The notes under the pieces are model-generated. The model saw nothing but the letters and a program-made list of their open reading frames with translations. It made no database searches and was not told the origin of the DNA. A stretch of 64,000 nt of DNA from contig CAYLTD010000008.1 in NCBI GenBank assembly GCA_964386715.1, forward strand, positions 57,123 to 121,122. Reading direction: 5' to 3'. How positions within the stretch are numbered: position 1 is the stretch's first letter; every line of letters begins with the position of its first letter. This DNA comes from an uncultured Bifidobacterium sp. (GTDB lineage: Bacteria; Acidobacteriota; Vicinamibacteria; Vicinamibacterales; CAVVIG01). A program made the translations under genes and the position numbers. Positions 25,922-46,424 of the stretch are shown piece by piece.

Positions 25922-26617
25922 ATGACCCGCATCCTCGTCGTCGAAGACGATCCGGACATCGCCGACCTCATGCGCCGCTACCTGCAGAAGGCGGGATTCG
26001 AGGTGGAGGTGCGCGGCTCGGGCCGTGAAGCGCTCGGCGCCATCGCCGCCGCCCCGCCCGACCTTCTCGTGCTCGACCTGATGCTGCCGCAGGTGAGCGG
26101 CCTGGATATCTGCCGAAGCGTACGATCCACCCCGCGCACGGCGGACGTCCCCATCATCATGGTTACCGCGCGCGCCGAGGCCTCGGAGCGGATCGCCGGG
26201 CTGGAGACCGGCGCCGACGATTACATCGGCAAGCCGTTCAGCCCCGCCGAACTGGTGGCACGGGTGAAGGCACTGCTGCGACGGACGGCCCGCTCGACAC
26301 CGCCGCCCGATGCCATCGAGTACGGCCCGATCACGGTGGACACGACGCAGCACACCGTCACGAGCGGCGGGAGCCCGGTGTTGCTGACGGCCAAGGAGTT
26401 CCTGCTGCTGCAATACCTCCTGCGCAACCGGGGACGGGTCCTGTCGCGCGACCTGCTGCTCACGGACGTGTGGGGATACAAGTACACGGGCGGCACGCGC
26501 ACGGTGGACGTCCACGTGCGCCGGCTGCGCGAGAAGCTGCCACTCCTCGGTGAGGCGCTGGTCACCGTGAAGCAGTTCGGCTACAAGCTGCTCGAGGCGC
26601 CCCCCTCCCCTGCCTGA
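25922..26617 (+). CDS. phoB: OmpR/PhoB-family response regulator, PhoB-like
   Basis: Receiver domain plus winged helix. [29 protein letters not shown] is very close to the E. coli PhoB segment as I recall it. TGATG overlap with the kinase gene. Confidence 0.8.
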
Positions 26618-28401
26618 TGCCGACCCGCGCGTCGTTCCAGACCAAGCTGTTCCTCGCGGCGCTGTCCACCGCGGTGCTGGCGCTGGCCGTTGCGGGTGTG
26701 CTCTTCACGCTGACCATCCGCGAGCAGGCCAACGCGCAGATCGAATCAACGCTGGGCGCTGAGGCCCGGCTCGTCTCGGACCTGCTCGCGCGCATGCCGG
26801 CGCCTGCCGGCGATGCGATGCGTTACCTCGACACCGAGGCCGATCGGATAGGACAACTCCTCGGCGTGCGCGTCACCCTGATCGGCAACGACGGGCGGGT
26901 GCTGGGCGACTCGGCCGAGGCGGCAGAGCGGCTGCCGCTGCTCGAGAACCATGCGACGCGCCCCGAGGTCGTGCGGGCGCGGGCAGGCGGGCTCGGCGTG
27001 GACAGGCGCAGCAGTTCGACCGTCGGCGTGGAGATGGTGTACGTCGCGGTGCCCTCACCGCACGCGCAGGTGGCCGTCGTCCGACTCGCGCTGCCGCTCA
27101 CCAGTGTCCGCCAGCAGCTGCAGCGCGGGCTCTCCCCCGCAGCCGTCGCACTGGGCCTGGCGCTGCTCGGCGGCGGACTGCTTGCCGCGATGCTCGCGGG
27201 ACGCATGGGACAGCGCGTCCGCGCCATCGCGTGGATCGCCGAGCGCTACCGGCAGGGCGACCTGACGCCACCGCGGCTCGACTACGGAGACGATGAACTG
27301 GGCCTGGTGGCACGGGCCCTGGACGATTCGGTCCACGAACTCGGCAGCCGCCTCGAAGACCTCGAACGGGACCGCGGCCGCATGGCGGCGCTCCTGGCCG
27401 GCATGATTGAGGGAGTCATCGTGGTGGACCAATCCGGACGGCTGCAGCTGGTCAACGCCGCCGCGCAGGACATGCTCCGAATCGACGCCGCACCGATCGG
27501 CCGGCACTACGTCGAGACGATCCGGCACCCGGCCATCACCGAGCTCGTCGCCGCGGCGCTGCGCGGCCGGACGCCGGCCTCGGTCGAGTTCTCCCCGCCA
27601 CGCGATTCGGCACGAACACTCATCGTGCGCGCCGCGCCGGTGGCCGCCGGCTGGCCATCCGGCGTCGTGCTCGTGCTGCACGACATCACGGAACTGAAGA
27701 AAGCGGACAAGGTGCGGCGGGACTTCGTCGCGAACGTCTCGCACGAACTGCGGACGCCGCTGACCGCCATCCGCGGCTACGTGGAGGCGCTGTCGGAGGG
27801 CGATGCCGGCCCGGAGGACAGCGCGCGGTTCCTCGAGATCATCACCCGCCACACCCGTCGGATGGAGCGGCTCGTACAGGACCTGCTGCGGCTGGCGCGG
27901 ATCGAAGCGGGGCAGGAGACCCTGGACCTCGGGCCATGCGACCTGCGGTCGCTCGCGCAGGTCGTCGTCTCCGATCTCGAGTCGGCATTCGACGCGAAGC
28001 AGCAGCGGGTGCGGATCGAGATCGACCCGTCAGCGGCGCTGGTGCAGGCCGACGCCGCCAAGCTGCACGACGTGCTGCGTAACCTGCTCGCCAACGCGAG
28101 TGCCTATTCGCCGGAGGGCACCACGATCCAGGTCGCGAGCCGACCGGCGAACGACCGCGTCGCCGTGGACATCCTCGACGAGGGCCCCGGCATTCCCGAG
28201 GGCGACCGCACACGCGTGTTCGAGCGGTTCTACCGGGTCGACAAGTCGCGCGCGCGCGACCCGGGCGGCACCGGCCTCGGGCTGGCGATCGTCAGGCACC
28301 TCGTGGAACTGCACGGCGGGAAGGTGTCGGTCAGGAACCGCGCGACCGGCGGGGCGCAGTTCACGGTCGAACTGGCACCCGCGTCGTTCGAGGAACGGTA
28401 G
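26617..28401 (+). CDS. phoR: sensor histidine kinase, PhoR-like
   Basis: Two TM segments flanking a periplasmic domain, then HAMP/PAS-like region, H-box [15 protein letters not shown] and HATPase ([11 protein letters not shown]). Confidence 0.75.
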
Positions 28402-28404
28402 GAC

Positions 28405-29397
28405 CTATCGCGCCCCGGCGAGGCTGAGCAGGGTGTAGGTGAGTGCGCCAATCGTGAAGGCGGCGGGAATGGTGAGCACCCACGCCCAGACGATCTGCCC
28501 GGCCACACCCCAGCGCACCGCCGACAGCCGCCGCGTGGCGCCGACGCCCACGATCGACCCGGTGATGGCGTGCGTGGTGCTGACGGGCACGCCCGTCAGC
28601 GTGGCAATCATCAGCGCCGTCGCCGCGCCGGTTTCCGCGGCAAATCCGCCGACGGGCTGGAGCTTGGTGATCTTGGCGCCCATCGTGTGAATGATGCGCC
28701 AGCCGCCGGCCAGAGTCCCGAGGCCGATCGCCGTGTGCGCGAGCAGGACCACCCAGAACGGGATGTCGAAGGTCGGGATGTAGCCGGCCGCGAACAGGAT
28801 GCCGGCGATGATGCCCATCGTCTTCTGGGCGTCGTTGGCACCGTGATTCAGGCTGAAGAAGGCAGCCGACACGAGCTGCAGGCGGCGAAACCACCGGTCC
28901 ACGCGCGACGGGGGCGTCCACCGGAAGATCCACAGGATCGCGGTCATCAGCGCGAGCCCGGCGGTCAGGCCGATGAGCGGCGACAGGAGGATGAAGGTGA
29001 GCGTGAGCGTCCAGCCGCTCGGGATGATCGCCGCGAACCCGGCCTTCGCCACCGCGGCTCCGGCGTAGCCGCCGATGAGCGCGTGCGACGAGCTCGTCGG
29101 GAGCCCGAAGTACCAGGTGATCAGGTCCCACACGATCGCGCCCGTCAGCCCGCCGAACACCACCGCGAAGGTGACGATGTTGATGTCGATCATGCCGGAG
29201 CCCACCGTCTTGGCGACGGCAGTTCCGAACACGAACGCGGCGACGAAGTTGAAGAACGCGGCCCAGATGACCGCCTTGCCCGGCGTCAGGACCCGCGTGG
29301 AGACGACGGTGGCGATGGAGTTCGCCGCGTCGTGAAAGCCGTTGATGTAGTCGAAGACGAGCGCGACCCCGATCAGCGCGACGACGATCCAGAACAT
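28405..29397 (-). CDS. pit: inorganic phosphate transporter, PiT family
   Basis: N-terminal FDYINGFHDAANSIAT and repeated GANDAQK motif. Multi-TM. Confidence 0.9.
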   Translation of the reverse strand: MFWIVVALIGVALVFDYINGFHDAANSIATVVSTRVLTPGKAVIWAAFFNFVAAFVFGTAVAKTVGSGMIDINIVTFAVVFGGLTGAIVWDLITWYFGLPTSSSHALIGGYAGAAVAKAGFAAIIPSGWTLTLTFILLSPLIGLTAGLALMTAILWIFRWTPPSRVDRWFRRLQLVSAAFFSLNHGANDAQKTMGIIAGILFAAGYIPTFDIPFWVVLLAHTAIGLGTLAGGWRIIHTMGAKITKLQPVGGFAAETGAATALMIATLTGVPVSTTHAITGSIVGVGATRRLSAVRWGVAGQIVWAWVLTIPAAFTIGALTYTLLSLAGAR

Positions 29398-29404
29398 CGG
29401 CGGG

Positions 29405-30022
29405 TCAACCGTGCTTGACTACGACGCCTTCGAGGACGTTGGCCACGTCCTCGCAGCGGTCGGTCGCATGCTCCAGCAGGTCGAGCGTCTCCTTCCACTT
29501 CATCACCGTGATCGGGTCGCGCTCGGTCTCGAACAGCCGGCTCACCGCTTCCTGGTGGATGCGGTCGGCGTCGTTCTCGAGGCGATTGATCTCGACGGCG
29601 TGGGTGATGACGCCCTTGTTCTTCTCCATGGCGTCGAGCGCGAGGCGGACCTGCCTGGTGCTGGCCGTGATCGTCTGGGCCAGTTCCCGCACACCGAACC
29701 GCACCGAATCGATCTTGTAGACCTTGATCAGCGTCGCCGACGCGTCGATGGCATCCATCACATCGTCGAGCGACTTGGCCAGCTCGTGGATGTCCTCGCG
29801 ATCGATCGGGGTGACGAAGGTCCGGTTCAGGCGCTGGATGATTTCGTGCGTGAGGAAGTCGCACTTGTGCTCGACCTCCTTGATCTCCTCCGCCTTGTGC
29901 CAGAGGGGCTGGTCGGGCGCGACCATCTCCTCGAGGAGCGCGGCCCCGCGCTGCAGTTCGTCAGCCAGCGCCTGGAAGTCACTGTAGAACTTCTCCTCGC
30001 GTGGAATCAGACGAAATACCAA
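29405..30022 (-). CDS. DUF47 / PhoU-like Pit accessory protein
   Basis: 205 aa, helical, starting FRLIPREEKFYSDF, which is typical of the TIGR00153 family. TTG start with GGGAGGG RBS. Immediately upstream of pit. Confidence 0.85.
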   Translation of the reverse strand: MVFRLIPREEKFYSDFQALADELQRGAALLEEMVAPDQPLWHKAEEIKEVEHKCDFLTHEIIQRLNRTFVTPIDREDIHELAKSLDDVMDAIDASATLIKVYKIDSVRFGVRELAQTITASTRQVRLALDAMEKNKGVITHAVEINRLENDADRIHQEAVSRLFETERDPITVMKWKETLDLLEHATDRCEDVANVLEGVVVKHG

Positions 30023-30082
30023 CGGACCCTCCCTCGACTGTCACTCGTCAACGCAGGAAACCCACGGATTGTAGCAGAACCA

Positions 30083-30099
30083 TTTACACAGCCGTTACA
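30083..30099 (+). promoter_or_regulatory. TTTACA-N5-GTTACA direct repeat, candidate PhoB/PhoP-type box
   Basis: The hexamers start 11 bp apart. The site lies 63 nt upstream of the glgC ATG and 61 nt from the divergent DUF47-pit start. Confidence 0.35.
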
Positions 30100-30161
30100 T
30101 GGCCTGCGCGAGGCGCGGCATCGGTTGGCTCTTGCATCGGGTGTACCATTTGCACACGTCA

Positions 30162-31442
30162 ATGGCCGTGAACAACGAAGTTCTCGCAATCATCCTGGGC
30201 GGCGGGCAGGGCTCGCGCCTTTTCCCCCTCACGCAGCTGCGCTCCAAGCCGGCGGTGCCGATCGCCGGGAACTACCGCCTGATCGACATCCCCGTGAGCA
30301 ACTGCCTGCACGCGGACATCCGGCGGATCTTCGTGCTGACGCAGTTCAACTCCGCGTCGCTCAACCGGCACGTGAGCCAGACCTACCGGATGGACCTGTT
30401 CAGCCCGGGCTTCGTCGAGATCCTGGCCGCCGAGATCACCCCCGAGAACACCAACTGGTTCCAGGGTACGGCCGACGCGGTGCGCAAGGCGGCCCGCCAC
30501 TTCGTCCGGTACGACTCCGACTACTACTTGATCCTGGCGGGCGACCACCTGTACCGGATGGACTACTGCGAGATGGTGGACGCGCACATCGAGCGCAAGG
30601 CCGACATCACCATCGCGGCGCAGCCCTGCACGCCCGAGGACGCCACGCAGATGGGCATCTTCCGCTTCGACCGCCAGGGGCACATCGTCGCCTTCGAGGA
30701 AAAGCCCAATGCCGAGCGGCTGGCCGAGATCGGCCAGAGCATCCCGAAGGGGGCGACCACGGCGGGCGTCTCACCGGACAAGCCCTTCGTGGCCTCGATG
30801 GGCGTGTACGTCTTCTCGCGCGAGGTGCTGCTCGAACTGCTGGCAGCGAGCGAGGCCAAGGACTTCGGCCGCGAGGTCATTCCGTCGGCCCTCGGGAAGT
30901 ATCGCGTCAATTCGTTCCTGTTCCGCGGGTTCTGGGCCGATGTCGGGACGGTGGAGTCGTTCTACGACGCGAACATCATGCTCACCAGGCCCGGGTCGCC
31001 CTTCAAGTTCTACGACCCGCACCGGCCGATCTTCACGCACGCGCGGTTCCTGCCGGGCTCACGGCTGGTGGACGCGCGCATGCACGACGCCATCGTGTCG
31101 GAGGGGTGCTATCTGGCGCAGTGCACCGTGGAGGCGTCGGTCATCGGGATCCGCACCCACGTGCAGGAGGGCGCCACCATTTCCCGGTCGGTGCTCCTCG
31201 GCGCGGACTATTTCGAGTCGGAAGACCGAGCCCCGGCCCGCGGGGATGCCCCGCGCCTGGGCATCGGGCGCAACGTCGTGCTGGACAAGGTGATCGTGGA
31301 CAAGAACGCGCGCATCGGCGACGGTGCGCGGCTCGTCAACGCGCAGGGCGTCACGCATGCCGACGGCGACGGCTACTACATCCGCGACGGCATCATCATC
31401 GTGCCGAAGGACGGGGTCATCAAGCCGGGCACCATCGTGTAA
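30162..31442 (+). CDS. glgC: glucose-1-phosphate adenylyltransferase
   Basis: Start at ATG 30162. LAIILGGGQGSRLFPLTQLRSKPAVPIAGNYRLIDIPVSNC. C-terminal left-handed beta-helix region. Confidence 0.9.
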   Translation: MAVNNEVLAIILGGGQGSRLFPLTQLRSKPAVPIAGNYRLIDIPVSNCLHADIRRIFVLTQFNSASLNRHVSQTYRMDLFSPGFVEILAAEITPENTNWFQGTADAVRKAARHFVRYDSDYYLILAGDHLYRMDYCEMVDAHIERKADITIAAQPCTPEDATQMGIFRFDRQGHIVAFEEKPNAERLAEIGQSIPKGATTAGVSPDKPFVASMGVYVFSREVLLELLAASEAKDFGREVIPSALGKYRVNSFLFRGFWADVGTVESFYDANIMLTRPGSPFKFYDPHRPIFTHARFLPGSRLVDARMHDAIVSEGCYLAQCTVEASVIGIRTHVQEGATISRSVLLGADYFESEDRAPARGDAPRLGIGRNVVLDKVIVDKNARIGDGARLVNAQGVTHADGDGYYIRDGIIIVPKDGVIKPGTIV

Positions 31443-31507
31443 ATCTTCCATAAGCTGCGGGGTCGACGGGCGAACCAATCCTAGGCCCGGGCCCCGCGTC
31501 CGCGCAG

Positions 31508-31546
31508 TTAACGCCCCTGTAACTTTCCCGTCGCAGCCCGATCACA
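31508..31546 (+). promoter_or_regulatory. four 11-bp-phased hexamers, candidate Pho box array
   Basis: TTAACG cccct GTAACT ttccc GTCGCA gcccg ATCACA. The array ends 84 nt upstream of the TBDR ATG (31630). Confidence 0.3.
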
Positions 31547-31629: not shown

Positions 31630-34600
31630 ATGAGACTGTTTCGCTTCATTGTCGCGGTGCTGTGCGCGGCGATGATCCCCGCTGCGGCGTCCGCTCAGCA
31701 AACCGAGGGGCGCATCATCGGCAAGATTGCCGACCAGAGCCAGGGCGCCCTGCCCGGTGTCACGGTCAACATCGAATCGCGCGACACGGGCGCCCTGCGC
31801 TCGATCGTCACCGATGCCGAAGGCCGGTTCACGGTCACCAACCTGTCGCCGGGCCGCTACCGCGTGACGGCGCAGCTCGAGGGTTTCCAGCCCCGGGTTC
31901 GCGACCTCGTGCTCGGCGTGGGCCAGGTGGAGACCGTGACGCTCGAACTCGGCATCGCGGCCATTTCCGAGTCGGTCAACGTGCAGGCCTCGGCCCCGGT
32001 GCTCGACGTCTCCTCGGCGCGCATCGGCGTGAACGTGTCGCCCGAAGAGGTGGAGAACCTCCCGGTCAACGGCCGCAACTTCGCCAACCTGATGACGCTG
32101 GCGACCGGCGCGACCTCGGACGGCAACGGCGGCTGGTCGTCGGTGCGTTTCAACGGCAAGTCGAACCAGCAGAACTATCTCAACTACGACGGCGTGGACG
32201 GCACCTACGTGTGGGACGCGAGCCCGGGCTACCTGAGCGCCACCGGCTCGCAGTTCCGCCTGCAGACCTCGATGGAATCGATCGCCGAGTTCCGCGTGAA
32301 CTCGGGCCTCGCGCCGGCGGAAAGCGGGCTGGGCGCCGGCGGCAACATCACGGTCATCAGCAAGAGCGGCAGCAACCAGCTGCGCGGCTCCGGCTTCTGG
32401 TACGGCCGGAACGACGCCCTCGATGCGGCCAGCAAGTACGACGACCGCAAGCAGCCGCTCGAGCTGAACCAGTTCGGCGGGTCGCTCGGCGGGCCGCTGC
32501 GCTCGAACCGCACGTTCTTCTTCGCCAGCTACGAAGGCCTGCGCCAGACCACCGGCCTGAGCTTCACGGAAGCGGTGCCGAGCGCCGAAGCGCGGCGGCG
32601 GATCCTGGCCGGTGAGCCAATCGGCTCGGGCGCGGGCCAGAGCGCCGCGCGCACGCAGGCGGTGGCCCCGCTGCTGGCCGGCTTCCCGCTCGGCCAGGTG
32701 CCGACGTCTAACCCCCTGGTCGACCTGGCCACACTCGACTCGAACGCGACGCAGCGTGAGAACGCGATCTCGCTCCGCCTGGACCATCGCTTCAGCGCAT
32801 CCCAGTCGGTCTACGCGCGCTACATGTTCAGCGACGGGACCGTCGACACGCCGGACCGGACCGTGACCCCGCGCCGGGTGCTGGCGAAGCAGCGGCCGCA
32901 GAACGCGGTCTTCAACTACCAGTCGATCGTGGGCTCGAACCTGGTGAACGAGATCAAGGTGGGTGTGAACCTGCCGCAGACGAGCGCCACGGCATTCGGC
33001 GCCGTGCCCAACTACCCGGCGCTCGGCGTCTCGCTGGCCGGCGCGTTCACCTCGTCCTCGATTGACGCCCGCGGCAACACGGGAATCGCGCGCAGCGGCC
33101 TGCTGATCCGCGCCACCAGCGCCTCGTCGACCACGGGGTCGGCGTTCGATCCGATGTCCATCGCGCTGAACAGCGCGACCACCTGGACCCGCGGCGTGCA
33201 CACGGTGAAGTTCGGCGGCGAGTACCGGCGCATCCAGTCGGACTTCCAGTTCCTGGGCAGCCAGGAACTGACCTACAACAGCATCAACGACTTCATCGAC
33301 AACCGCCCGAATCAGTACGCCGTCACGCAGGACTCGCCGGTCTTCCGGCCCGAACAGTTCTACGCGATTGGCTTCGTGCAGGATACGTGGCGAACGAGCG
33401 ACAAGCTGACGCTCGAACTGGGCCTGCGCTACGACTACTACTCGGTGGTGCGTGAGGCCCAGGGCCGCGCCAGGCCGTTCTTCGTCGAGGAGAACGAGTT
33501 CAGCGCGGACGCGAACAACTTCTACGACCCGGACTACAACAACTTCTCGCCCCGCCTGTCGGCGGCCTATCAGCTGAACAACAAGACAGTGCTGCGGTCC
33601 GGCTTTGGCCTGTTCTACGGCCCGGGCCAGTTCGAGGATCGGATCCAGCCGATCGAGAACTACATCGAGCGCTCACGCGTGCAGGCGTCCGACGTGTCGG
33701 CCAACGCGCTCGCGTATCCGATTGCGGATGCCACGCTCCGCAACCTGCTGTCGATTCGCGGCTACACGCACAACTACCCGAACGAATACAACATGCAGTA
33801 CGGCGTGAGCGTGCAGCGCGAGCTGCCCGGCGCGGTCAACCTGACCGTGGGCTACACGGGCAGCAAGGGCTACGACATGTTCCTGCGCGGCGTGGGCAAC
33901 ACGCTGGACCCGCTCACCCGGGTGCGGCCGGTGCCAGGCTACGGCCAGATCGACTTCAAGACCGGCGGCTGCGTGGACTTCTCGCTGGCGGGCCGCTACC
34001 CGGTGGCGGGCTGCGGCACGGCCAACTACAACGCCCTGCAGGTGAGCGCCACGCGGCGATTCCAGGCGGGCTTCACCGGCGGCTTCCAGTACCAGTACTC
34101 GCGCAACCGGGGCACGACGCAGGGCTCGAACGAAGCGGCGACCGCCCAGAACACCTTCGACTTCAACAGCGAGAACGGGATCAACCCGCAGGACATCCCG
34201 CACACCTTCAACGGCTCGCTGATCTACCTGCTGCCCGGCGAGGGAGCGTGGAAGGGCGGCTGGCGCGTGGGCACCATCATCAACGCCCGGAGCGGCGTGC
34301 CGGTCAACGTCACCATCAACCGTCCGGACAACATCTCGGTCGGCGGCGTGACGGTGACGAACATCCCCGGCGGCAACAGCCGCGGCACGCAGCGCCCGGA
34401 CCTGGTCCCCGGCGTGAACCCCTACATCGAGAACGGGGGCGTACGCTGGCTGAATCCGGCCGCCTTCGCCACGCCGCAGCCCGGCACCTTCGGCAACCTG
34501 CCGCGCAACTTCCTCCGCGGGCCCGAGTTCTGGCAGGCCGACCTGATGTTCTCGAAGGACTTCCGCTTCGCGAACACGCAGGGCATCCAGTTCCGCGTCG

Positions 34601-34878: not shown

Positions 34879-34913
34879 GCCCGCCGGAAACATTCCGGCG
34901 GGCGTTGTCTTTG
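34879..34913 (+). terminator. intrinsic terminator
   Basis: 11-bp stem GCCCGCCGGAA/TTCCGGCGGGC, 3-nt loop, then GTTGTCTTTGT. A second hairpin lies at 34800..34823, right after the stop. Confidence 0.7.
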
Positions 34914-35976: not shown

Positions 35977-35994
35977 GACTGGCGCGGGCGGGCG

Positions 35995-37085: not shown

Positions 37086-37090
37086 GGCCG

Positions 37091-38029: not shown

Positions 38030-38069
38030 GTCCGAGTGCTGTCGAGGGTCCGCTGCCTGACGTCGCGCG

Positions 38070-39161: not shown

Positions 39162-39251
39162 CGAAACGATTCCTCCGGCCATGCCTGCTGGCAGGTCACT
39201 CCTGCCGCGCACGGACCCAGCTGGAAGTGTGTAACGACGTTAGGCGCAACG

Positions 39252-39290
39252 GGTGTCCGGCATGCGTCCGGCATGTTTCGGGCGTGTAAA
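39252..39290 (-). promoter_or_regulatory. four 11-bp-phased hexamers, candidate Pho box array for pstSCA
   Basis: Sense strand reads TTTACA cgccc GAAACA tgccg GACGCA tgccg GACACC. It contains an 11-bp tandem duplication with 10 of 11 positions identical (+ strand 39254..39275). Ends 91 nt upstream of the pstS ATG. Confidence 0.45.
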
Positions 39291-39298
39291 TTCCTGCG

Positions 39299-40393
39299 TC
39301 ATTGCATGATACCCATCAGGATCAGCACCAGTTCGAGCACCAGGATCAGCACGACGATGAGCTCGAGCAGGTGGCCGCGGGCACTCGCGGACTGCTCCAC
39401 GGCGAAGCGGGAGATGTCGTCCAGGGTCTGGAGTTTTGCCTGCACGTCGGCCTTCCAGGTCTCGAGCCCGAGCCGGGCGGCTATCAGCCGGAACAGCCGC
39501 ACCGCGTAGATATCGCCGATGAACTTGACCGTGTTCTCGGTCCGGTCGGTCAGCTCGTTGACGTCGATGAACAGGGCGTGCACCTGCCGCGCGGCCGCGG
39601 CGTACCGCGAGCCGAACCATCCCGGCGTCCGCCGCGGTTCCTTGAGGCGGCTGTAGATGCGCCCGAGCTCCTCGTCCAGCAACCGGTCGTAGTGCCGGAA
39701 CTCCAGGAGCTGCGAGTTGGCGAACTCGGCGATATCCAGGGCGGCCTGCACGCCGGCTGGCGTGTCATAGACGAACGCCGCATTCCATGTGGGCACGACG
39801 AGGTCGTCGGCGAGGTACGAGATGCGGTGGGCGAGCACGGCCTCCTGCTCCTGCCGGCTGAGCGGCTGCCGCTCGCCTCGCAGCAGCGCGGCGATGTCCC
39901 CGCCGTGCTCCGCGAGCAGCGCGTCGGCCGTGAGTGGTACGTCGAGCGCGTGCACCGCGAACACGACGTAGTCCTCGGACAGCACGCGATCGCCCGGTTG
40001 GCCGAGCGCGGGGCGGAGGCGCTCCGCCACCTGGTGCGCGAGCGTCTCGGCGCGCCGCTCGAGTTCGGCGTTTTCCATCACCTCCGGCGCGGTCGCGAGC
40101 AGCTCGCTCCAGGACCCGTGGAAGGGACGGGACAGCGCCAGCGACAGGACGCCGTAGTCGTAGATCCGCACGCGCGTGTGGAACCCCGCGACCGCCGGCA
40201 GCGCGAGTGCATCGCCATCGAATGCAAGCGGAGGATTGTCGTACTGCACGTAGGGAGGCGTCGGCGGCTTGGGCGAAAGGCGCGAGGCCACGGCCGATGG
40301 CCCGACGAGCGCCGGGACCGCCCCGAGGTCGGCGCTCTCCGCGACGTCGAACAGGTAGAACGCCACGACCTGGCCCGTGCGGATCTGCGACAT
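39299..40393 (-). CDS. hypothetical protein with C-terminal TM helix, possibly RMD1/DUF155-like
   Basis: 364 aa. The C-terminal FIGDIYAVRLFRLIAARLGLETW and a terminal TM segment (LLELIVVLILVLELVLILMG) loosely recall DUF155. The label is weak; the CDS call is good. Confidence 0.7.
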   Translation of the reverse strand: MSQIRTGQVVAFYLFDVAESADLGAVPALVGPSAVASRLSPKPPTPPYVQYDNPPLAFDGDALALPAVAGFHTRVRIYDYGVLSLALSRPFHGSWSELLATAPEVMENAELERRAETLAHQVAERLRPALGQPGDRVLSEDYVVFAVHALDVPLTADALLAEHGGDIAALLRGERQPLSRQEQEAVLAHRISYLADDLVVPTWNAAFVYDTPAGVQAALDIAEFANSQLLEFRHYDRLLDEELGRIYSRLKEPRRTPGWFGSRYAAAARQVHALFIDVNELTDRTENTVKFIGDIYAVRLFRLIAARLGLETWKADVQAKLQTLDDISRFAVEQSASARGHLLELIVVLILVLELVLILMGIMQ

Positions 40394-40435: not shown

Positions 40436-40474
40436 CCACGACGGCGTCCACACGGGGTTCACACGGCGTCGACA
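40436..40474 (+). promoter_or_regulatory. four tandem 11-mers with TTCACA-type hexamers, candidate Pho box array
   Basis: CCACGA cggcg TCCACA cgggg TTCACA cggcg TCGACA. Lies 43-86 nt upstream of the ATG at 40393, on the opposite strand to that gene. Confidence 0.35.
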
Positions 40475-40519
40475 CGGCGGCGGTGGCGCGAGCGGAACCG
40501 GAGGCGAACGCCCGGCGCG

Positions 40520-42883
40520 TCAGAACGCGGTACGCAGGCGCACCATCCAGGTGCGGGGCGCACCGTAGTGCGTCCCGTTGAAGATCGAGAGGAAGTTGAG
40601 CAGGTACCGCGTGTCGAACACGTTCAGCAGTCCCGCCTGCAGTTCGAGCCTCCTCGGGCCGCGCCGCACCAGGTCGGCACTCGCCAGCACGTCGAGCAGC
40701 GCCCGCGACCTCGCGCGCCCCGTTGCCACGTTCACCAGCGGCAGGGCCGCGGGATCCTCGAAGGTCGCCGGATCGAACCCCTCGGGCAGCGCGAACGGGA
40801 TGCCGCTGTCCACGCGGCCGGTGGCCGACAGCGAGACGCGCGTGCTCGGGTGCTGCCAGGTCGCGCCGTACTGCATCTGCCAGCGCTGATCGTGATCGGC
40901 GTAGAACCGCTCCCCCGCCTCCGGCACCTCCTCGAGGAACAGGCCCCCGGTGAGCGGCGCCGTCAGGAGCGTCCGCGCCCGCGCGAGGCTCAGGTACCCG
41001 TTGACACCACGGTAGACGGGCACGTCCACCCTGGCCTCGACACCTTCGGCGACCCCCCGGGCCACCGAAATCGGGAACGTCACCGTCGTGTCGAAGAACT
41101 GCGCCACGTCGGCGAGGTTGCGGATGTTCTTGCGGTAGTAGGCGAGGTCCACCTTCGCGCGCGTGGAGAATGCCTGCTGCACGCCGACCTCGAAGGCGTG
41201 CTGACGCTCCGAGGTGACGTCGGCGCCGGCGATGCCGCTGGTCGACAGCGCGCGCGCCTGCGCCGAACTGGACAGCAGCAGGTTCTCGGAGAACGGCGGC
41301 ATGAAAATGCGGCTGTACGACCCGCGGATCACGGTGCCGCTGTCGTGCACGTGATAGGCGACGCCGAGCCGCGGGCTCAGCGCCGACTCCTCCACCAGCA
41401 TGTCGTAGCGGTCCCAGCGCATGCCGACGTTGATGTGCAGGTCCTCGAGGGGCGATACCGAATCCTGCACGAAGAGCCCGAGGTTCTGGCCCACCGCGCG
41501 CCCGGCAAAGAAGAACGGCCGTCCGCCTCGTGCGGGATCGAGCGCCGCCTGCAGCGCCGGGTCCACGTCGCCGTTCGGCGTCATGCCGAACTGCTCACGC
41601 GCCGGGTTCCGGTCGTACTGCACGCCGGCCTTGAGTCGATGTCCCGCGGCCGCGTAGCTCACGGCCGCGTTGACGCCCTGGTGATCGAGCGAGCGATCCT
41701 GCGTCGCGGCCAGCGGCACGGCTGTCGAAGCATCGAGCCGGGCGGTAGCCGCCCGCCGGTACGCCTGCACATCGAGCGTCGTGTGCGCGTCGAGCTGCCG
41801 CAGCCACGTCAGCGTCTGCGAGTTGTCGCGCAGGGCCTGGGTCGTGTCCACGCCGAGCGCCTGCGACGCGGCGCGGTTCGCCACGCGGAAGTCGCTGCCG
41901 TTGGCGCTGACCACGGCCCGCACGAAGTCGTGGTCCGACAGGCGGAATTCCATCTTTGCGGTGAACCGGCGCGCATCGCCGCTGTTGTTGAAGTTGTCGG
42001 CGGTCGGCGGGTCGAGGTAGCGATCGGTGCGGTTCCCGCCGGCGCTCACGAAGTAGCCGGTGTTCGTGCCGACGCGCCCGCCGATGGTGGCTCCGCCATC
42101 AACCGCGCCGAAGCGGCCGAGATTGAACGTGCCGGTGCCGGTCACGCGGCGCGGATCGTCGAGGCCCGACCTCGACGTGATGTCGACCACCGCGCCCAGC
42201 TTGCGGCCGTACTCCGCGGGAATGCCGCCGGTCATCACCGCGGCGGACTTCACGTACCGCGGGTCGAGGGGGTTGGCGTAGGCCTCCGTGTATTCGTCGG
42301 TCATCGGCACGCCGTCGACGATGTACTGGATCTGGCCGTGGGATCCGCGCACGTGGATGCGCCCGTTCTGGCTCGGGATGAAGCCGGGCGCCGACAGCAG
42401 CATGCCCGAGAGCTGCCGGCTCGGCGTGGCGGTCGGCATGCGGTCGATCAGGCTGGCCCCGAGGTCGACGTGCGAGCCGGTCGACGAGGTCTCGAGGATG
42501 GCGTCGGCGGACACCTGCACCGTCTCGGCAACCGCGGCGACGCCCACCTGCAGGTCCACCGCCATGGGCACGGTGGTGTGCACGTCCACCACCTGCTGCG
42601 CCTGGGCGAATCCGGGCAGCGCCGCGGTGAGCACGTAGATGCCGAACGGCACGTTCGAGAGCAGGTACCGGCCGTCCCCGTCGGTGACGGCTTCCTGCCC
42701 GGCCTGCGAGATGCGGTTCAGCAAGGTGATCGAGGCACCGGGTACCGGGAGCCCCTGGGGATCGGTGACGGTACCGGAGACGGTCCCGATGTTCTGCGCC
42801 GCGAGGCGGGTGACGCCGAGCAGCAGGCACCACAGCACGCAGGCAGTCAATCGTGCGCTGACAACAGGCCGGAGGGCGGTCAT
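40520..42883 (-). CDS. TonB-dependent receptor with carboxypeptidase-regulatory-like N-terminal domain
   Basis: Signal peptide followed by GTVSGTVTDPQGLPVPGASITL. Plug and barrel. C-terminal VRLRTAF. Confidence 0.9.
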   Translation of the reverse strand: MTALRPVVSARLTACVLWCLLLGVTRLAAQNIGTVSGTVTDPQGLPVPGASITLLNRISQAGQEAVTDGDGRYLLSNVPFGIYVLTAALPGFAQAQQVVDVHTTVPMAVDLQVGVAAVAETVQVSADAILETSSTGSHVDLGASLIDRMPTATPSRQLSGMLLSAPGFIPSQNGRIHVRGSHGQIQYIVDGVPMTDEYTEAYANPLDPRYVKSAAVMTGGIPAEYGRKLGAVVDITSRSGLDDPRRVTGTGTFNLGRFGAVDGGATIGGRVGTNTGYFVSAGGNRTDRYLDPPTADNFNNSGDARRFTAKMEFRLSDHDFVRAVVSANGSDFRVANRAASQALGVDTTQALRDNSQTLTWLRQLDAHTTLDVQAYRRAATARLDASTAVPLAATQDRSLDHQGVNAAVSYAAAGHRLKAGVQYDRNPAREQFGMTPNGDVDPALQAALDPARGGRPFFFAGRAVGQNLGLFVQDSVSPLEDLHINVGMRWDRYDMLVEESALSPRLGVAYHVHDSGTVIRGSYSRIFMPPFSENLLLSSSAQARALSTSGIAGADVTSERQHAFEVGVQQAFSTRAKVDLAYYRKNIRNLADVAQFFDTTVTFPISVARGVAEGVEARVDVPVYRGVNGYLSLARARTLLTAPLTGGLFLEEVPEAGERFYADHDQRWQMQYGATWQHPSTRVSLSATGRVDSGIPFALPEGFDPATFEDPAALPLVNVATGRARSRALLDVLASADLVRRGPRRLELQAGLLNVFDTRYLLNFLSIFNGTHYGAPRTWMVRLRTAF

Positions 42884-43175: not shown

Positions 43176-46100
43176 ATGTCCCTTTTTCGTTCGATCCTTG
43201 CCACACTGCTCGTGCTCGCGTCGGCGCCCGCGTGGGCGCAGTTCGACACCGGCGCCGTCCTGGGGACGGTGCGCGATTCGAGCGGCGGCGTCCTGCCAGG
43301 CGCCACCGTGACGCTCCGCTCCGTGGACACGGGCATCTCCGCCACCCGCACGTCGGACGAGGGCGGCAACTACGAATTTCCCACCGTGCGCACGGGCACC
43401 TACACGGTGACCACCGAACTGCAGGGCTTCTCGACCCGCGCGATGACCGGCATCAAGGTGGACATCGGCGCCCGCGAGCGCGTGGACGTGGAACTCGGCG
43501 TCGGCATCGTCAGCGAGGCGGTGAGTGTTGTGGCCTCGGCACCGCTGCTCGAGACCGACACGAGCCAGCGCGGCCAGGTGATCACCGGCGAGCAGACGCA
43601 GGCGCTGCCGCTCAACGGACGCCAGTACTCGTCCCTCGCGCTGCTCACCACCGGCGTGCGCCTGTCCTTCTCCTTCGCGGCCGGGAACACCCCGCGCGAA
43701 GGATCCTTCAACGTGAACGGCCTGCGCAGCACGTTCAACAACTTCATGATCGACGGGGTCGACAACAATGCGTACGGCACGAGCAACCAGGGGTTCTCGA
43801 ACCAGGTCATGCAGCCGCCGCCGGAAGCCGTGAGCGAGTTCAAGGTCGTCACCAACAACATGAGCGCCGAGTACGGGCGCGCGGCTGGCGCCACGATCAA
43901 CGTGGTCTACAGGAGCGGAACGAACCAGTTCCACGGCACCGGCTGGGAGTTCCTGCGCGACACGTCGATGAACGCCACCGGATTCTTCCGGCCGGCCACG
44001 GGCAAGCCGGAGTTGCGGCGCAACCAGTTCGGCGGCGTCCTGGGTGGCCCGATCCTGCAGAACCGCGCGTTCTTCTTCGGCGACTACGAAGGCTTCATCC
44101 AGGATCAGCGCGTCACCAGCTTCGCGACGATTGCGAGCAACACGCAGCGGCAGGGCATCCTGCCGGTTGCGGTGCGCGACCCGAGGACGGGCGTCGTCTA
44201 CGACGCCGGCACGCCACTCCCGATGACCACGTTCGCGCAGCGGGTCTTCAGCGGCCTGCCGTCGGCCGCGGCGGCGACGCCGAACAACTTCTCGGTGCTG
44301 CAGGAGTTCACGAACGACACGCACAAGGCGGGCGGCAAGGTGGACATGCAGGTGCAGCCGGGTTTGTCGGCGTTTGGGCGGTATGGTTGGCGCGACCTGA
44401 AGACCTTCGACCAGCCGGTGCTGCCGCTGCCGGCCGGGGGCGACGGCAACGGCACGATCTACTCGCGCAATCACCAGGTCGCGCTGGGCACGACGTGGGT
44501 CCCGAGCCCTTCGTCGCTCTTCGAGGTGCGGTTCGGCGTCTCGAAGACGGAAGCCGGCAAGGATCCGCCGTCACTGGGGGCGGCGAGCGCACTCGACGCG
44601 TTCGGCCTGGCCGGCCTGCCGTCCGACGCGCGGATTGCCGGCGGCCTGCCCACGCAGATCGTCACCGGCTACACGACACTCGGTCGGCAGGCGACCAACC
44701 CGCAGTGGCAGTACCCGACCGTGTACAACCCGAAGGTGAACTACACCTGGCTGGCCGGCACGCACTCCCTGAAGAGCGGCTACGAGTTCCAGCGCATCAA
44801 CACGCAGGTGCAGGACGTGAACCCGCTGTACGGGCGCGACTCATACTCGGGGCAGTTCTCGCGGCCGGCCGGGGCGGCTGCCAGCAATATCTACAACCTT
44901 GCGGACTTCATGCTCGGGCTGCGGTCGCAGTACGCGCTGAGCAACGTGCTGGTGGCCAACGTCCGCCAGAACATGCACTTCCTCTACCTGCAGGACGACT
45001 GGCGCCTGCGTGACGGGCTGACGCTCAATCTCGGCCTGCGCTACGAGTACGCGACGCCGCAGTGGGAGCGCGACAACATCCTGTCGAACTTCGACCCGGT
45101 GGCCCGCACGATGGTGCCAGCCCGCGACGGCTCGATGCGGGACCGGTCGACGATCAATCCGGACCGCAACAACGTCGGGCCGCGCCTCGGCTTCGCGTGG
45201 ACGTTCGCGGAGAACACGGTGGCGCGCGGTGGGTACGGAGTGAGCTACGTCCACTTCAACCGCGCTGGCGGCGGCAACCTGCTGCCGATCAACGGCCCGC
45301 AGGTGATCAACGCGGTCGTCAACCAGGGCCCGGCCGATCCGACGTTCCGGCCGACCGAACAGGGATACCCGGCGGGGCTCACCGACCCGAGCCGGTTCGA
45401 CCCGCTGACGGCGAACATCACCTACATGCCCGAGGACTACCGCTCGAGCCAGGTCCAGAGCTGGTTCGTCTCGGTGCAGCGACAGTTCGGCCGCGGCATC
45501 CTCGTCGACCTCGCCTACGTGGGCAACCGAGCCGACGATCAGCTCCTGTTCGCCAACTTCAACCAGGCGGTGCCGAACAACGCGGCCGGCACGCTCTCGC
45601 TGCAGGCCCGGCGGCCGATCCCGACCTATTCGGACATCACCTACGCCTTCAACGGCGGCAAGTCGCGCTACCGTGCGTTCCAGGCGAAGTTCCAGTGGCG
45701 GTATCACACCGATGTCTCGGTGCTCAGCTCGCTGACGCTGTCGGAGGCGAAGGACAACGGCGCGGGCTCGCTCGAAAACCCGAACGGCAACTTCCCGGCG
45801 CCGCAGGACTTCCGGAACCTGGACGCCGACTTCGGCCTCTCCGCCTACCACCAGCCGTACAACAGCACCACGAGCGTGATCTGGTCGCTGCCCTTCGGGC
45901 GCGGCAAGCGCTGGGGCGGTGGCGTCTCACCCGCAATGGACGGGCTCGTCGGGGGCTGGCAGCTCGCCTTCATCAACAGCGTCCTCGCTGGTGAGACGGC
46001 CACCTTCACCTACACGCCCACCAACGCTTTCCTGGTGTCCGGCATTCAACAGGACTTCCGCGGTGCCAACAACTACCGTCCGAACGTCGTCGGCGACCCG

Positions 46101-46424
46101 TATGCACCTGAGGGCCAGCGGACGATCACGAACTGGTTCAACCGCGACGCCGTGATCATCCCGACCGACCCGAGCCAGCCGTTCGGCAACGCGCCGCGCA
46201 ACAGCGTGCGCGGACCGCTCTTCTGGCAGGTGGACGCGGCTGCCAGCAAGCAGCTGTCGCTGACGGGACGCGTCAAGGTGGAGTTCCGCATCGAGGCGTT
46301 CAACCTGCTCAACCGCACCAACTTCCGTCCGCCGAACGCGAACCGCAGTTCGAATGCGTTCGGGACCATCACGTCCACCTACGATCCGCGGCAGCTGCAG
46401 CTCGGCTTCAAGCTGCTCTGGTAA
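43176..46424 (+). CDS. TonB-dependent receptor with carboxypeptidase-regulatory-like N-terminal domain
   Basis: Signal peptide (ASAPAWAQ) followed by GAVLGTVRDSSGGVLPGATVTL. 1082 aa. C-terminal LQLGFKLLW. Confidence 0.9.
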   Translation: MSLFRSILATLLVLASAPAWAQFDTGAVLGTVRDSSGGVLPGATVTLRSVDTGISATRTSDEGGNYEFPTVRTGTYTVTTELQGFSTRAMTGIKVDIGARERVDVELGVGIVSEAVSVVASAPLLETDTSQRGQVITGEQTQALPLNGRQYSSLALLTTGVRLSFSFAAGNTPREGSFNVNGLRSTFNNFMIDGVDNNAYGTSNQGFSNQVMQPPPEAVSEFKVVTNNMSAEYGRAAGATINVVYRSGTNQFHGTGWEFLRDTSMNATGFFRPATGKPELRRNQFGGVLGGPILQNRAFFFGDYEGFIQDQRVTSFATIASNTQRQGILPVAVRDPRTGVVYDAGTPLPMTTFAQRVFSGLPSAAAATPNNFSVLQEFTNDTHKAGGKVDMQVQPGLSAFGRYGWRDLKTFDQPVLPLPAGGDGNGTIYSRNHQVALGTTWVPSPSSLFEVRFGVSKTEAGKDPPSLGAASALDAFGLAGLPSDARIAGGLPTQIVTGYTTLGRQATNPQWQYPTVYNPKVNYTWLAGTHSLKSGYEFQRINTQVQDVNPLYGRDSYSGQFSRPAGAAASNIYNLADFMLGLRSQYALSNVLVANVRQNMHFLYLQDDWRLRDGLTLNLGLRYEYATPQWERDNILSNFDPVARTMVPARDGSMRDRSTINPDRNNVGPRLGFAWTFAENTVARGGYGVSYVHFNRAGGGNLLPINGPQVINAVVNQGPADPTFRPTEQGYPAGLTDPSRFDPLTANITYMPEDYRSSQVQSWFVSVQRQFGRGILVDLAYVGNRADDQLLFANFNQAVPNNAAGTLSLQARRPIPTYSDITYAFNGGKSRYRAFQAKFQWRYHTDVSVLSSLTLSEAKDNGAGSLENPNGNFPAPQDFRNLDADFGLSAYHQPYNSTTSVIWSLPFGRGKRWGGGVSPAMDGLVGGWQLAFINSVLAGETATFTYTPTNAFLVSGIQQDFRGANNYRPNVVGDPYAPEGQRTITNWFNRDAVIIPTDPSQPFGNAPRNSVRGPLFWQVDAAASKQLSLTGRVKVEFRIEAFNLLNRTNFRPPNANRSSNAFGTITSTYDPRQLQLGFKLLW

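What the first reader, a model, noticed from the sequence alone, without database searches (positions are those of the whole stretch)
25922..46424. Dense phosphate-acquisition region interleaved with three TonB-dependent receptors
Within about 20 kb lie phoB/phoR-like genes, pit plus DUF47, glgC, a TBDR, glpQ, pstSCA, an unknown gene and two divergent TBDRs. Elsewhere in the window are a PLD-like gene, a secreted metallophosphoesterase, ppx, sixA, phoD and a PLC/PHP fusion behind a further TBDR. A fifth TBDR (4785..7145) sits beside the metallophosphoesterase. TBDRs are classically linked to iron, B12 and glycans. Four sit right beside Pi-scavenging hydrolases, and one has a candidate Pho box. 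This suggests TonB-energised import of phosphorylated or polymeric P substrates, a role that is poorly characterised.
Basis: inference. Interest (0 to 1): 0.55.

Follow-up and report, generated by a model that had tools for sequence, protein, structure and literature searches.

The report
Phosphate-starvation island with TonB-dependent receptors
A soil acidobacterium (order Vicinamibacterales) packs its phosphate-scavenging genes into one region, and at least two of the five outer-membrane TonB-dependent receptors there appear to be switched on by the same phosphate-starvation DNA signal, a link already known in other phyla but not yet described in this one.

Summary

The window comes from a Vicinamibacterales (Acidobacteriota) genome assembled from a metagenome. 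I derived the likely Pho box of this order: units with a (G/T)(A/T)(A/T)AC core repeated every 11 bp.
- It occurs 7 times in the window against 0.31 expected, and every copy is intergenic.
- In 80 related loci it lies upstream of phosphate porin, pstS, a pstB-like gene, DUF47-pit and a PhoB-like regulator.

Evidence for each receptor (TBDR):
- **TBDR1 (31630-34788):** a clear box, conserved in three orthologous promoters.
- **TBDR5 (cut by the window end):** heads a run of three same-strand genes, TBDR5, a GDPD/PHP phosphoesterase and PhoD. It has a one-mismatch box just outside the window.
- **TBDR2, TBDR3, TBDR4:** no significant box here.

Across relatives, 16 of 33 TBDR genes carry a box, against 139 of 1090 other genes.

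Phosphate-starvation control is therefore well supported in silico for two receptors. The substrate and the direction of transport are untested. All five receptors are Oar-type, so export of the hydrolases is a real rival explanation. Pho-regulated TBDRs are already documented in Flavobacterium and Caulobacter, so this is a new member of a known kind.

The parts
25922..26617 (+). PhoB-like OmpR-family response regulator, paired with the kinase that follows
   Evidence: Pfam Response_reg + Trans_reg_C. The best NCBIfam hit is PhoB, 234 bits against a 296 cut-off.
26617..28401 (+). PhoR-like HAMP-PAS histidine kinase
   Evidence: Pfam HAMP, PAS, HisKA and HATPase_c. NCBIfam PnpS 340 bits and PhoR 302 bits, both below cut-off.
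28405..30022 (-). DUF47(PhoU_div)-Pit low-affinity phosphate transporter operon
   Evidence: Pfam PHO4 (E 9e-92) and PhoU_div. The pair and its Pho box are conserved in relatives.
30080..30101 (+). Pho box in the DUF47-pit | glgC divergent promoter. Read towards DUF47, it is followed by TGCTACAAT.
   Evidence: Strict pattern match; PWM score 22.7 bits; the sequence is shown.
30099..31442 (+). glgC (glucose-1-phosphate adenylyltransferase). The true start is probably a little downstream.
   Evidence: NCBIfam NF002772, 575 bits against a 537 cut-off; the alignment begins at residue 26.
31505..31526 (+). Pho box about 105 nt upstream of TBDR1. It is the first two units of a four-unit array in 11-bp phase.
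   Evidence: Strict pattern match; PWM score 17.2 bits. Orthologous promoters in L007, L038 and L039 score 20-24 bits.
31630..34788 (+). TBDR1: Oar-type TonB-dependent receptor, 1052 aa
   Evidence: Pfam CarboxypepD_reg + OMP_b-brl_4 (E 3e-145); signal peptide.
34879..34903 (+). Terminator-like hairpin between TBDR1 and glpQ
   Evidence: Stem of 11 pairs, 9 of them G-C, followed by a T-rich tail.
35038..35976 (+). GlpQ-type glycerophosphodiester phosphodiesterase, exported
   Evidence: Pfam GDPD E 2e-49; NCBIfam PRK11143, 162 bits; hydrophobic N-terminus.
36246..39212 (-). pstS (lipoprotein)-pstC-pstA; no pstB
   Evidence: NCBIfam equivalogs pass their cut-offs. tblastn finds no pstB or phosphate porin (Porin_O_P) in the window.
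39272..39293 (-). Pho box upstream of pstS
   Evidence: Strict pattern match. At 23.4 bits it is the highest PWM score in the window.
39299..40393 (-). Unknown conserved protein of 364 aa: cytoplasmic alpha/beta domain, long helices and a C-terminal transmembrane helix
   Evidence: No hit in the local Pfam; precomputed PF27233. More than 2,500 homologues at about 65% identity. AF2 pLDDT 69 with no PDB match.
40520..42883 (-). TBDR2: shorter TonB-dependent receptor (787 aa) upstream of the unknown gene and pstSCA. No Pho box.
   Evidence: Pfam CarboxypepD_reg, Plug and TonB_dep_Rec_b-barrel. Best PWM score in its promoter is 4.3 bits.
43176..46424 (+). TBDR3: Oar-type receptor (1082 aa). Pho box is degenerate here.
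   Evidence: Pfam OMP_b-brl_4 (E 5e-206), Plug and CarboxypepD_reg. Orthologue promoters score 21.6 bits in L019, 7.3 in L007 and 2.9 in L020.
4785..7145 (-). TBDR4: classical-length receptor, convergent with the metallophosphoesterase. No Pho box.
   Evidence: Pfam Plug (87 bits) + barrel. Closest NCBIfam families are haem/siderophore subfamilies. Promoter TGTTATAAT.
49788..49831 (+). Four-unit Pho-box array upstream of the second, orphan PhoB-like regulator (49856-50545)
   Evidence: Three overlapping strict matches. The array is conserved in more than 20 related loci. The regulator's best NCBIfam hit is PhoB, 227 bits.
57964..59553 (-). PhoD alkaline phosphatase with a Tat signal; last gene of the TBDR5 cluster
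   Evidence: Pfam PhoD (E 3e-109) + PhoD_N; SRRDLL twin-arginine motif.
59572..61917 (-). 781-aa exported two-domain phosphoesterase: GDPD/PLC-like TIM barrel, beta-sandwich, then PHP/CehA metallohydrolase
   Evidence: NCBIfam CehA_McbA, 219 bits. AF2 pLDDT 81. Foldseek hits 3e38 and 2anu (PHP) and 3mz2 and 5t9c (GDPD), probability 1.0. Signal peptide with a possible lipobox.
61917..64000 (-). TBDR5: Oar-type receptor, N-terminus beyond the window end (1076 aa in full)
   Evidence: Pfam OMP_b-brl_4, E 1e-179. The full gene and its promoter were recovered in L087, with an 11.7-bit Pho box at L087 1785-1806.

Best explanation
The window holds the core phosphate-starvation (Pho) regulon of a Vicinamibacterales acidobacterium.

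**Regulation.** A PhoB-family regulator is proposed to bind arrays of (G/T)(A/T)(A/T)AC units spaced 11 bp apart. The window encodes two candidates: one paired with a PhoR-like kinase and one orphan. The regulator is inferred to activate pstSCA, DUF47-pit, the orphan regulator itself and DUF6526. It probably also activates corA and a pyruvate kinase. Two Oar-type TonB-dependent receptors are also inferred targets: TBDR1, next to an exported GlpQ, and TBDR5, the first of three contiguous same-strand genes with an exported GDPD/PHP phosphoesterase and a Tat-exported PhoD.

**Most likely mechanism (inferred, not shown).**
1. Under Pi limitation, these receptors use TonB energy to bring scarce phosphodiesters or other organophosphates across the outer membrane.
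2. The co-encoded phosphodiesterases and PhoD release Pi in the periplasm.
3. Lipoprotein PstS with PstCA, plus a PstB encoded elsewhere, and Pit carry the Pi into the cell.

**The other three receptors.** TBDR2, TBDR3 and TBDR4 lie in or near the island but have no detectable Pho box in this genome. Their link to phosphorus is unproven.
For: **The motif is real and phased**
- Seven strict matches in the window against 0.31 expected, all intergenic.
- Counts by spacer length peak at 6, 17 and 28 nt, which corresponds to repeats every 11, 22 and 33 bp. The counts are 178, 91 and 57 against a background of about 10-20.
- In the 80 related loci plus the window, 149 of 185 matches fall outside ORFs, although 81% of the sequence is coding.

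**It marks the canonical Pho regulon**
- Matches lie upstream of Porin_O_P, PstS, a PstB-like ATPase, DUF47-pit and the PhoB-like regulator.

**TBDR1**
- 17.2 bits, from a position weight matrix (PWM) trained without any TBDR-adjacent sites.
- Orthologue promoters score 20-24 bits.

**TBDR5**
- An 11.7-bit site lies in its 98-bp promoter. About 1.1 sites of at least 10 bits are expected by chance per 64 kb.
- A relative, L095, has phased sites of 10.6 and 8.8 bits in the same position.

**TBDRs as a class**
- 16 of 33 TBDR genes have a site of at least 10 bits, against 139 of 1090 other ORFs (Fisher p = 1e-6).

**Gene neighbourhood**
- The two-domain phosphoesterase lies next to an Oar-type TBDR in 10 of 11 metagenome loci where both flanks are visible.
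- TBDR1 and TBDR3 orthologues recur beside pst, the regulator and the unknown gene.

**Supporting details**
- The hydrolases carry Sec or Tat signals.
- Precedents exist in PMC8115612 and PMC11208175.
Against: - There are no expression or transport data; every regulatory claim rests on sequence motifs.
- Neither PhoB-like regulator reaches the NCBIfam PhoB cut-off, and which of them binds the box is unknown.
- The TBDR5 box has one mismatch and shares its promoter with a divergent second ppx gene.
- A terminator-like hairpin separates TBDR1 from glpQ.
- Glycerophosphodiesters are small enough to pass through porins.
- TBDR2, TBDR3 and TBDR4 lack a box.
- The loci used for the enrichment test were chosen around a gene linked to phosphate genes. 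Some boxes there lie in promoters shared with canonical Pho genes.
- The Oar subclass has a documented export role (PMC6434023).
Confidence: 0.5

Rival explanations
1. The Oar-type receptors (TBDR1, TBDR3, TBDR5) export the neighbouring phosphoesterases (GlpQ, the GDPD/PHP enzyme, PhoD) from the periplasm to the cell surface or the medium. Pi would then be released outside the cell and enter through the outer membrane by an unidentified route.
For: - All five receptors carry the CarboxypepD_reg N-terminal extension that defines the Oar subclass.
- Oar itself is required for secretion of the protease PopC (PMC6434023).
- The receptor and the two-domain enzyme are an almost obligate gene pair: 10 of 11 loci.
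- The enzyme has a possible lipobox, which is compatible with display on the surface.
Against: - Only one export case is known for this subclass.
- The window contains no phosphate porin gene, so there is no evident local route for Pi released outside the cell.
- In Bacteroidota, the same type of N-terminal extension occurs on importing SusC proteins.
- The hydrolases have ordinary Sec or Tat signals.
Confidence: 0.15
2. The Pho-controlled receptors import a metal or cofactor that the phosphatases need (Fe3+/Ca2+ for PhoD, metals for the PHP and metallophosphoesterase enzymes), not a phosphorus compound.
For: - PhoD-type and PHP-type enzymes depend on metals (established knowledge).
- Iron is the classical TBDR substrate.
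- TBDR4 resembles haem and siderophore receptors most closely: 164 bits to TonB-hemin.
Against: - TBDR1, TBDR3 and TBDR5 score only about 20-30 bits against any haem or siderophore receptor model.
- Pfam labelling of the main ORFs turned up no siderophore-type ABC transporter or binding-protein genes beside them.
- No E. coli-type Fur box lies upstream of TBDR1, TBDR2 or TBDR3: at most 8 of 19 positions match.
- No riboswitch was found anywhere in the window.
Confidence: 0.12
3. Most of the receptor-phosphatase adjacency is incidental. Acidobacteria encode very many Oar-type receptors, and TBDR2, TBDR3 and TBDR4 (possibly others) transport unrelated substrates such as peptides or glycans.
For: - TBDR2, TBDR3 and TBDR4 have no significant Pho box.
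- TBDR4 is convergent with its neighbour and has a constitutive-looking promoter.
- 17 of 33 TBDR genes in these phosphate-rich neighbourhoods have no box.
Against: - Five receptors in 64 kb is dense, compared with 36 in the 1.46 Mb analysed, a total that includes the window.
- Boxes are about six-fold enriched at TBDR genes.
- TBDR3 orthologues remain next to the unknown gene and pst in four genomes, and one of them has a 21.6-bit box.
Confidence: 0.2

Closest known systems
Phosphate utilisation systems (PUS: PusCD and Pi-inducible TBDTs) of Flavobacterium johnsoniae (Lidbury et al. 2021, PMC8115612)
   Same: Outer-membrane TonB-dependent transporters are induced only by Pi depletion. They are clustered with periplasmic phosphodiesterases and phosphomonoesterases and with Pi transporters. 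Hypothetical exported proteins lie downstream of some of the receptors.
   Different: - No SusD-like partner was found here.
- The SusC/RagA model scores 56 bits against a cut-off of 368.
- The receptors belong to the long Oar/OMP_b-brl_4 type.
- The phylum and the Pho-box sequence differ.
- There are no expression data here.
Caulobacter crescentus PhoB regulon (Billini et al. 2024, PMC11208175)
   Same: [quoted passage not shown]
   Different: In Caulobacter, membership was shown experimentally. Here it is inferred from a predicted box. The receptor subclass and the operon structure with GDPD/PHP and PhoD also differ.
Myxococcus xanthus Oar (Gomez-Santos et al. 2019, PMC6434023)
   Same: The domain architecture is the same: CarboxypepD_reg N-terminal extension, plug and a large barrel.
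   Different: Oar is required for protein export (PopC) and is not linked to phosphate.
Pho boxes of PhoB/PhoP/SphR-family regulators (E. coli, Bacillus, cyanobacteria)
   Same: Direct repeats in 11-bp phase that replace the -35 element. Up to four units per array were seen in this window (five in one relative), and the regulator gene carries its own array.
   Different: The unit sequence, (G/T)(A/T)(A/T)AC, resembles the Bacillus TT(A/T/C)ACA and cyanobacterial TTAAC-type units (recalled from memory) more than the E. coli CTGTCAT. Binding has not been tested.

Membership tests
TonB-dependent receptor/transporter | C-terminal 22-strand beta-barrel domain | tested here: met
   All five receptors hit PF00593 and/or PF25183, with E-values from 1e-26 to 5e-206.
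TonB-dependent receptor/transporter | N-terminal plug domain (PF07715) with a TonB box | tested here: inconclusive
   Plug was detected in TBDR2, TBDR3, TBDR4 and TBDR5, but not above threshold in TBDR1. The TonB box was not searched for.
TonB-dependent receptor/transporter | Transport depends on TonB-ExbBD and the proton motive force | not testable with these tools
   Needs genetics or transport assays. Pfam labelling of the main ORFs found no tonB or exbBD gene in the window.
Oar subclass of TBDTs | N-terminal extension with PF13620/PF13715 (CarboxypepD_reg) | tested here: met
   Present in all five receptors. The definition comes from PMC6434023.
Oar subclass of TBDTs | [quoted passage not shown] | not testable with these tools
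   Needs localisation of the hydrolases in receptor mutants.
Pho regulon (PhoB-activated promoter) | Phased Pho-box repeats upstream of the gene | tested here: met
   Met for TBDR1 (strict match, 17.2 bits) and for TBDR5 (11.7 bits, one mismatch).
Pho regulon (PhoB-activated promoter) | Phased Pho-box repeats upstream of TBDR2, TBDR3 and TBDR4 | tested here: not met
   Best score is 4.3 bits in the TBDR2|TBDR3 intergenic region. The TBDR4 promoter (7146-7336) has no entry in the window-wide top-40 list, whose lowest score is 2.1 bits.
Pho regulon (PhoB-activated promoter) | Induction by Pi limitation that depends on PhoB | not testable with these tools
   No expression data exist for this MAG.
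Bacteroidota SusCD/PusCD system | SusC/RagA-family transporter paired with a SusD-like lipoprotein | tested here: not met
   TIGR04056 scores 56-91 bits against a cut-off of 368. No SusD-family Pfam hit appeared among the window ORFs scanned.
PstSCAB high-affinity phosphate transporter | PstS, PstC, PstA and PstB encoded together | tested here: not met
   PstS, PstC and PstA pass equivalog cut-offs. No pstB is present in the window. In relatives, a PstB-like gene lies apart with its own Pho box.
PhoB/PhoR two-component system | Score above the equivalog cut-off of the PhoB and PhoR models | tested here: not met
   PhoB is the best hit for both regulators but scores 234 and 227 bits against a 296 cut-off. 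PhoR scores 302 against 334. These are distant or lineage-specific versions.

The most novel reading that the evidence does not exclude
In Acidobacteria, Oar-type TonB-dependent receptors paired with GDPD/PHP phosphoesterases and PhoD form a dedicated Pi-starvation machine. Either it takes up phosphodiester polymers or head groups whole ('selfish' organophosphate uptake without a SusD partner), or it runs in reverse and secretes the phosphoesterases. The second case would extend TonB-dependent protein export beyond Myxococcus.
Probability: 0.2. Interest if true: 0.75.

Novelty: new member of a known kind. Interest (0 to 1): 0.45.

Why it matters
Vicinamibacterales are abundant soil bacteria that soil surveys link to phosphorus cycling, for example PMC8751388. 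I found no paper in the searchable library that describes their Pho regulon or links their many Oar-type receptors to phosphorus.

This analysis yields three things that can be tested directly:
- **A candidate Pho box for the order.** It allows the Pho regulon to be predicted in uncultured genomes.
- **Two concrete receptor-enzyme cassettes.** TBDR1 with GlpQ, and TBDR5 with the GDPD/PHP enzyme and PhoD. The second is widely conserved in soil metagenomes.
- **A route to an open question.** No substrate of a Pi-starvation-induced TonB-dependent receptor has been identified in any organism, to my knowledge. These cassettes make good test cases, including for the alternative that the receptors export the enzymes.

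Tried and rejected
- **Unsupervised motif search.** Expectation-maximisation on the promoters converged on the regulator's own promoter and was not general. I replaced it with a strict phased pattern and a PWM trained without TBDR-adjacent sites.
- **Structure of the unknown 364-aa protein.** Confidence was moderate (pLDDT 69). Foldseek against the PDB gave nothing significant, only weak CorA-like hits. A sequence search of the PDB, relaxed Pfam and a literature search for MJ0711 also gave nothing.
- **TBDR3 against PDB sequences.** No hits.
- **Pho-box scan of the 80 metagenome loci around the phosphoesterase.** Uninformative, because most come from other taxa with 55-62% GC.
- **Fur-box scan and Rfam scan for riboswitches upstream of the receptors.** Both negative.
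- **TBDR1-glpQ as a tight operon.** Rejected as certain: the true glpQ start is 35038, and a terminator-like hairpin lies between the two genes.
- **Weak phased arrays.** The four-unit array upstream of TBDR3 and the triple 11-bp repeat at 40446-40477 were considered as degenerate Pho boxes. They do not reach significance with the PWM.


Full report
**1. What is in the window**

The window has about 70% G+C, so I chose reading frames by third-codon-position G+C and labelled them with Pfam and NCBIfam.

Inside 25922-46424:
- a PhoB-like regulator and a PhoR-like kinase
- pit with DUF47
- glgC
- TBDR1 (31630-34788)
- a GDPD/GlpQ enzyme (true start 35038)
- pstA, pstC and pstS on the minus strand
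- an unknown 364-aa gene
- TBDR2 (40520-42883, minus strand), divergent from TBDR3 (43176-46424)

Outside that range:
- a PLD-like gene
- a metallophosphoesterase with a signal peptide
- TBDR4 (4785-7145)
- a second PhoB-like regulator (49856-50545)
- DUF6526
- a SixA-like phosphatase
- Ppx
- CorA
- a pyruvate kinase
- PhoD
- a 781-aa protein
- TBDR5, cut by the window end

The structure predicted for the 781-aa protein (pLDDT 81) matches PHP phosphoesterases in its C-terminal part. Its N-terminal TIM barrel matches glycerophosphodiester phosphodiesterases (3mz2, 5t9c). GlpQ, this enzyme, PhoD (Tat motif) and the metallophosphoesterase all have export signals, and PstS looks like a lipoprotein.

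**2. Where it comes from**

The window's proteins occur on a 182,836-bp NCBI contig and in several Logan assemblies, ERR34949xx. Relatives of the unknown gene found in the species-representative genome collection are almost all Vicinamibacteria or Vicinamibacterales MAGs.
- One of them, L007, is at about 69% identity and has the same gene order from sixA to DUF47.
- Many others have parts of that order.

The clustering is therefore conserved, not accidental.

**3. A Pho box for this order**

Intergenic regions upstream of pstS, DUF47-pit, TBDR1 and the second regulator share AT-rich units in 11-bp phase.
- The strict pattern KWWAC-N6-KWWAC occurs 7 times in the window against 0.31 expected. 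Every copy is intergenic.
- When the spacer length is varied across the relatives, counts peak sharply at 6, 17 and 28 nt: 178, 91 and 57, against about 10-20 elsewhere. That is what a regulator binding one face of the DNA helix should produce.
- In 1.46 Mb of related loci plus the window, 149 of 185 matches lie outside ORFs, although 81% of the sequence is coding.
- The genes downstream are phosphate-selective porins, both kinds of PstS, a PstB-like ATPase, DUF47-pit and the PhoB-like regulator.

I conclude by comparative inference, not experiment, that this is the Pho box of the order. Both regulators in the window have PhoB as their best NCBIfam match but fall below the cut-off. Which of them binds is unknown.

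**4. Which receptors are linked to it**

A position weight matrix (PWM) trained only on sites in relatives that are not next to a TBDR gives 9 window hits of at least 10 bits, against 1.1 in shuffled sequence.

| Receptor | Pho-box evidence |
|---|---|
| TBDR1 | 17.2 bits; first two units of a four-unit array; orthologous promoters in L007, L038 and L039 score 20-24 bits |
| TBDR5 | promoter lies just outside the window and was recovered in L087; 98-bp region shared with a divergent second ppx; one-mismatch site of 11.7 bits; relative L095 has phased 10.6- and 8.8-bit sites in the same place |
| TBDR2, TBDR3 | best score in the shared intergenic region is 4.3 bits; TBDR3 orthologues vary (21.6, 7.3 and 2.9 bits) |
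| TBDR4 | no site; has a TGTTATAAT promoter; resembles haem/siderophore receptors most closely |

Across all loci, 16 of 33 TBDR-like genes have a site of at least 10 bits within 300 bp upstream, against 139 of 1090 other ORFs (Fisher p = 1e-6). Two caveats apply. The loci were selected around a gene linked to phosphate genes, and some promoters are shared with canonical Pho genes.

**5. Neighbourhood conservation**
- TBDR1 orthologues (68-75% identity) lie near pst genes, the regulator and glgC in four genomes.
- TBDR3 orthologues (63-68%) lie beside the unknown gene in four genomes.
- Homologues of the 781-aa enzyme were traced in soil metagenomes. Where both flanks are visible, the two-domain form is directly next to an Oar-type TBDR in 10 of 11 loci. 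The single-domain form is next to one in 4 of 16.
- I saw no siderophore or glycan-utilisation genes beside these receptors. The neighbouring genes in those loci were labelled only by similarity to window proteins.
- In most relatives, pstS is preceded by a phosphate porin. The window has no such porin and no pstB.

**6. Mechanism and rivals**

The best reading is a Pho regulon in which TBDR1 and TBDR5 are induced by Pi starvation and import organophosphates. Exported phosphodiesterases and PhoD then hydrolyse these, and Pst and Pit take up the Pi. The regulatory step is supported in silico. The transport step is inference.

The main rival comes from the domain architecture. All five receptors have the CarboxypepD_reg N-terminal extension of the Oar subclass, and Oar is needed to secrete a protein (PMC6434023). 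The receptors could therefore export the adjacent hydrolases.

A metal-uptake role is less likely:
- no Fur box
- no riboswitch
- no similarity of TBDR1, TBDR3 or TBDR5 to siderophore receptors

For TBDR2, TBDR3 and TBDR4, incidental adjacency cannot be excluded.

**7. Comparison with what is known**
- Flavobacterium induces SusCD-like 'Pus' complexes and other TBDTs only under Pi depletion. They are clustered with periplasmic phosphodiesterases (PMC8115612).
- The present loci work like these but are not SusCD systems: there is no SusD, and the SusC model scores far below its cut-off.
- Searches of the library found no paper linking TBDRs to phosphate in Acidobacteria or Vicinamibacterales.

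This is therefore a new member of a known kind. The useful additions are a candidate Pho box and a widely conserved receptor-phosphoesterase cassette.

**8. Verdict**
- Observation: confirmed.
- Interpretation: partly supported. It holds for two of five receptors at the level of predicted regulation. Substrate and direction of transport remain open.
- Interest: moderate, 0.45.

Noticed in passing
window 39299-40393 (-); relatives L007-L086: The unknown 364-aa protein belongs to a very large, strongly conserved family: more than 2,500 homologues at about 65% identity, precomputed PF27233. It has a cytoplasmic alpha/beta domain and a C-terminal transmembrane helix, and no structural match. In many relatives it lies immediately downstream of the orphan PhoB-like regulator and upstream of glgC, all on the same strand. 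In about 11-15 of 80 loci it is directly next to a TBDR. It may be an uncharacterised component of phosphate signalling.
   Followed up: partly
window 49856-50545 (+) and 49788-49831: There is a second, orphan PhoB-like regulator. It has the strongest and most conserved Pho-box array (four units, found in more than 20 related loci). This suggests it autoregulates and could be the real Pho regulator, not the one paired with the kinase at 25922.
   Followed up: partly
window 35985-36103: A G-rich tandem repeat, (GGTCGGGAG) x 10.8 copies at 92% match, lies between the convergent glpQ and pstA genes. It could form G-quadruplexes. Its function is unknown.
   Followed up: no
window 40446-40477 (+): Three 11-bp direct repeats (GTCCACACGGG GTTCACACGGC GTCGACACGG) lie between TBDR2 and the unknown gene. 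They resemble a GC-rich version of the Pho-box unit but are not significant with the PWM. They are absent from L007, where the two genes lie only about 15 bp apart.
   Followed up: partly
window 50798-50819, 53702-53723, 56704-56725: Pho-box-like sites also lie upstream of three other genes: DUF6526 (23.3 bits, a strict match in the window; strict matches also precede its orthologues in L007 and L067), CorA (12.5 bits) and a long PRK14725-type pyruvate kinase (10.5 bits). These are possible unexpected members of the Pho regulon.
   Followed up: partly
relatives L016, L035, L039, L040, L042, L053 (e.g. L040 12512-16689): In at least four of these relatives (L016, L040, L042, L053), an exported hypothetical protein of 440-460 aa with no Pfam hit lies just downstream of a different TBDR (about 930 aa where full-length) that has a Pho box upstream. 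Homologues of the hypothetical protein also occur in L035 and L039. The pair recalls the hypothetical lipoproteins found downstream of Pi-inducible TBDTs in Flavobacterium. It is absent from the window.
   Followed up: partly
L087 173-1735 (just beyond the window's right end): A second Ppx-GppA gene lies divergent from TBDR5 and shares the promoter region that holds the 11.7-bit Pho-box site.
   Followed up: partly
window 7337-12730 (-): A DnaE2-like error-prone polymerase (PHP, DNA_pol3_alpha, OB fold) is followed by a 588-aa ORF with no Pfam hit. This may be an imuB-dnaE2 mutagenesis cassette. It lies directly upstream of TBDR4.
   Followed up: no
window 47593-49072 (-): A cytoplasmic PHP-domain protein (248 aa) and a family-2 glycosyltransferase form a gene pair that is conserved in several relatives (L024, L063, L081, L082, L095). 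It is probably a biosynthetic pair rather than a phosphate-scavenging one, despite lying next to TBDR3.
   Followed up: no
window 733-1125 (-): A 130-aa bacterial SET-domain protein (Pfam SET, E 5e-24) lies next to a radical-SAM gene. It is unrelated to the finding.
   Followed up: no
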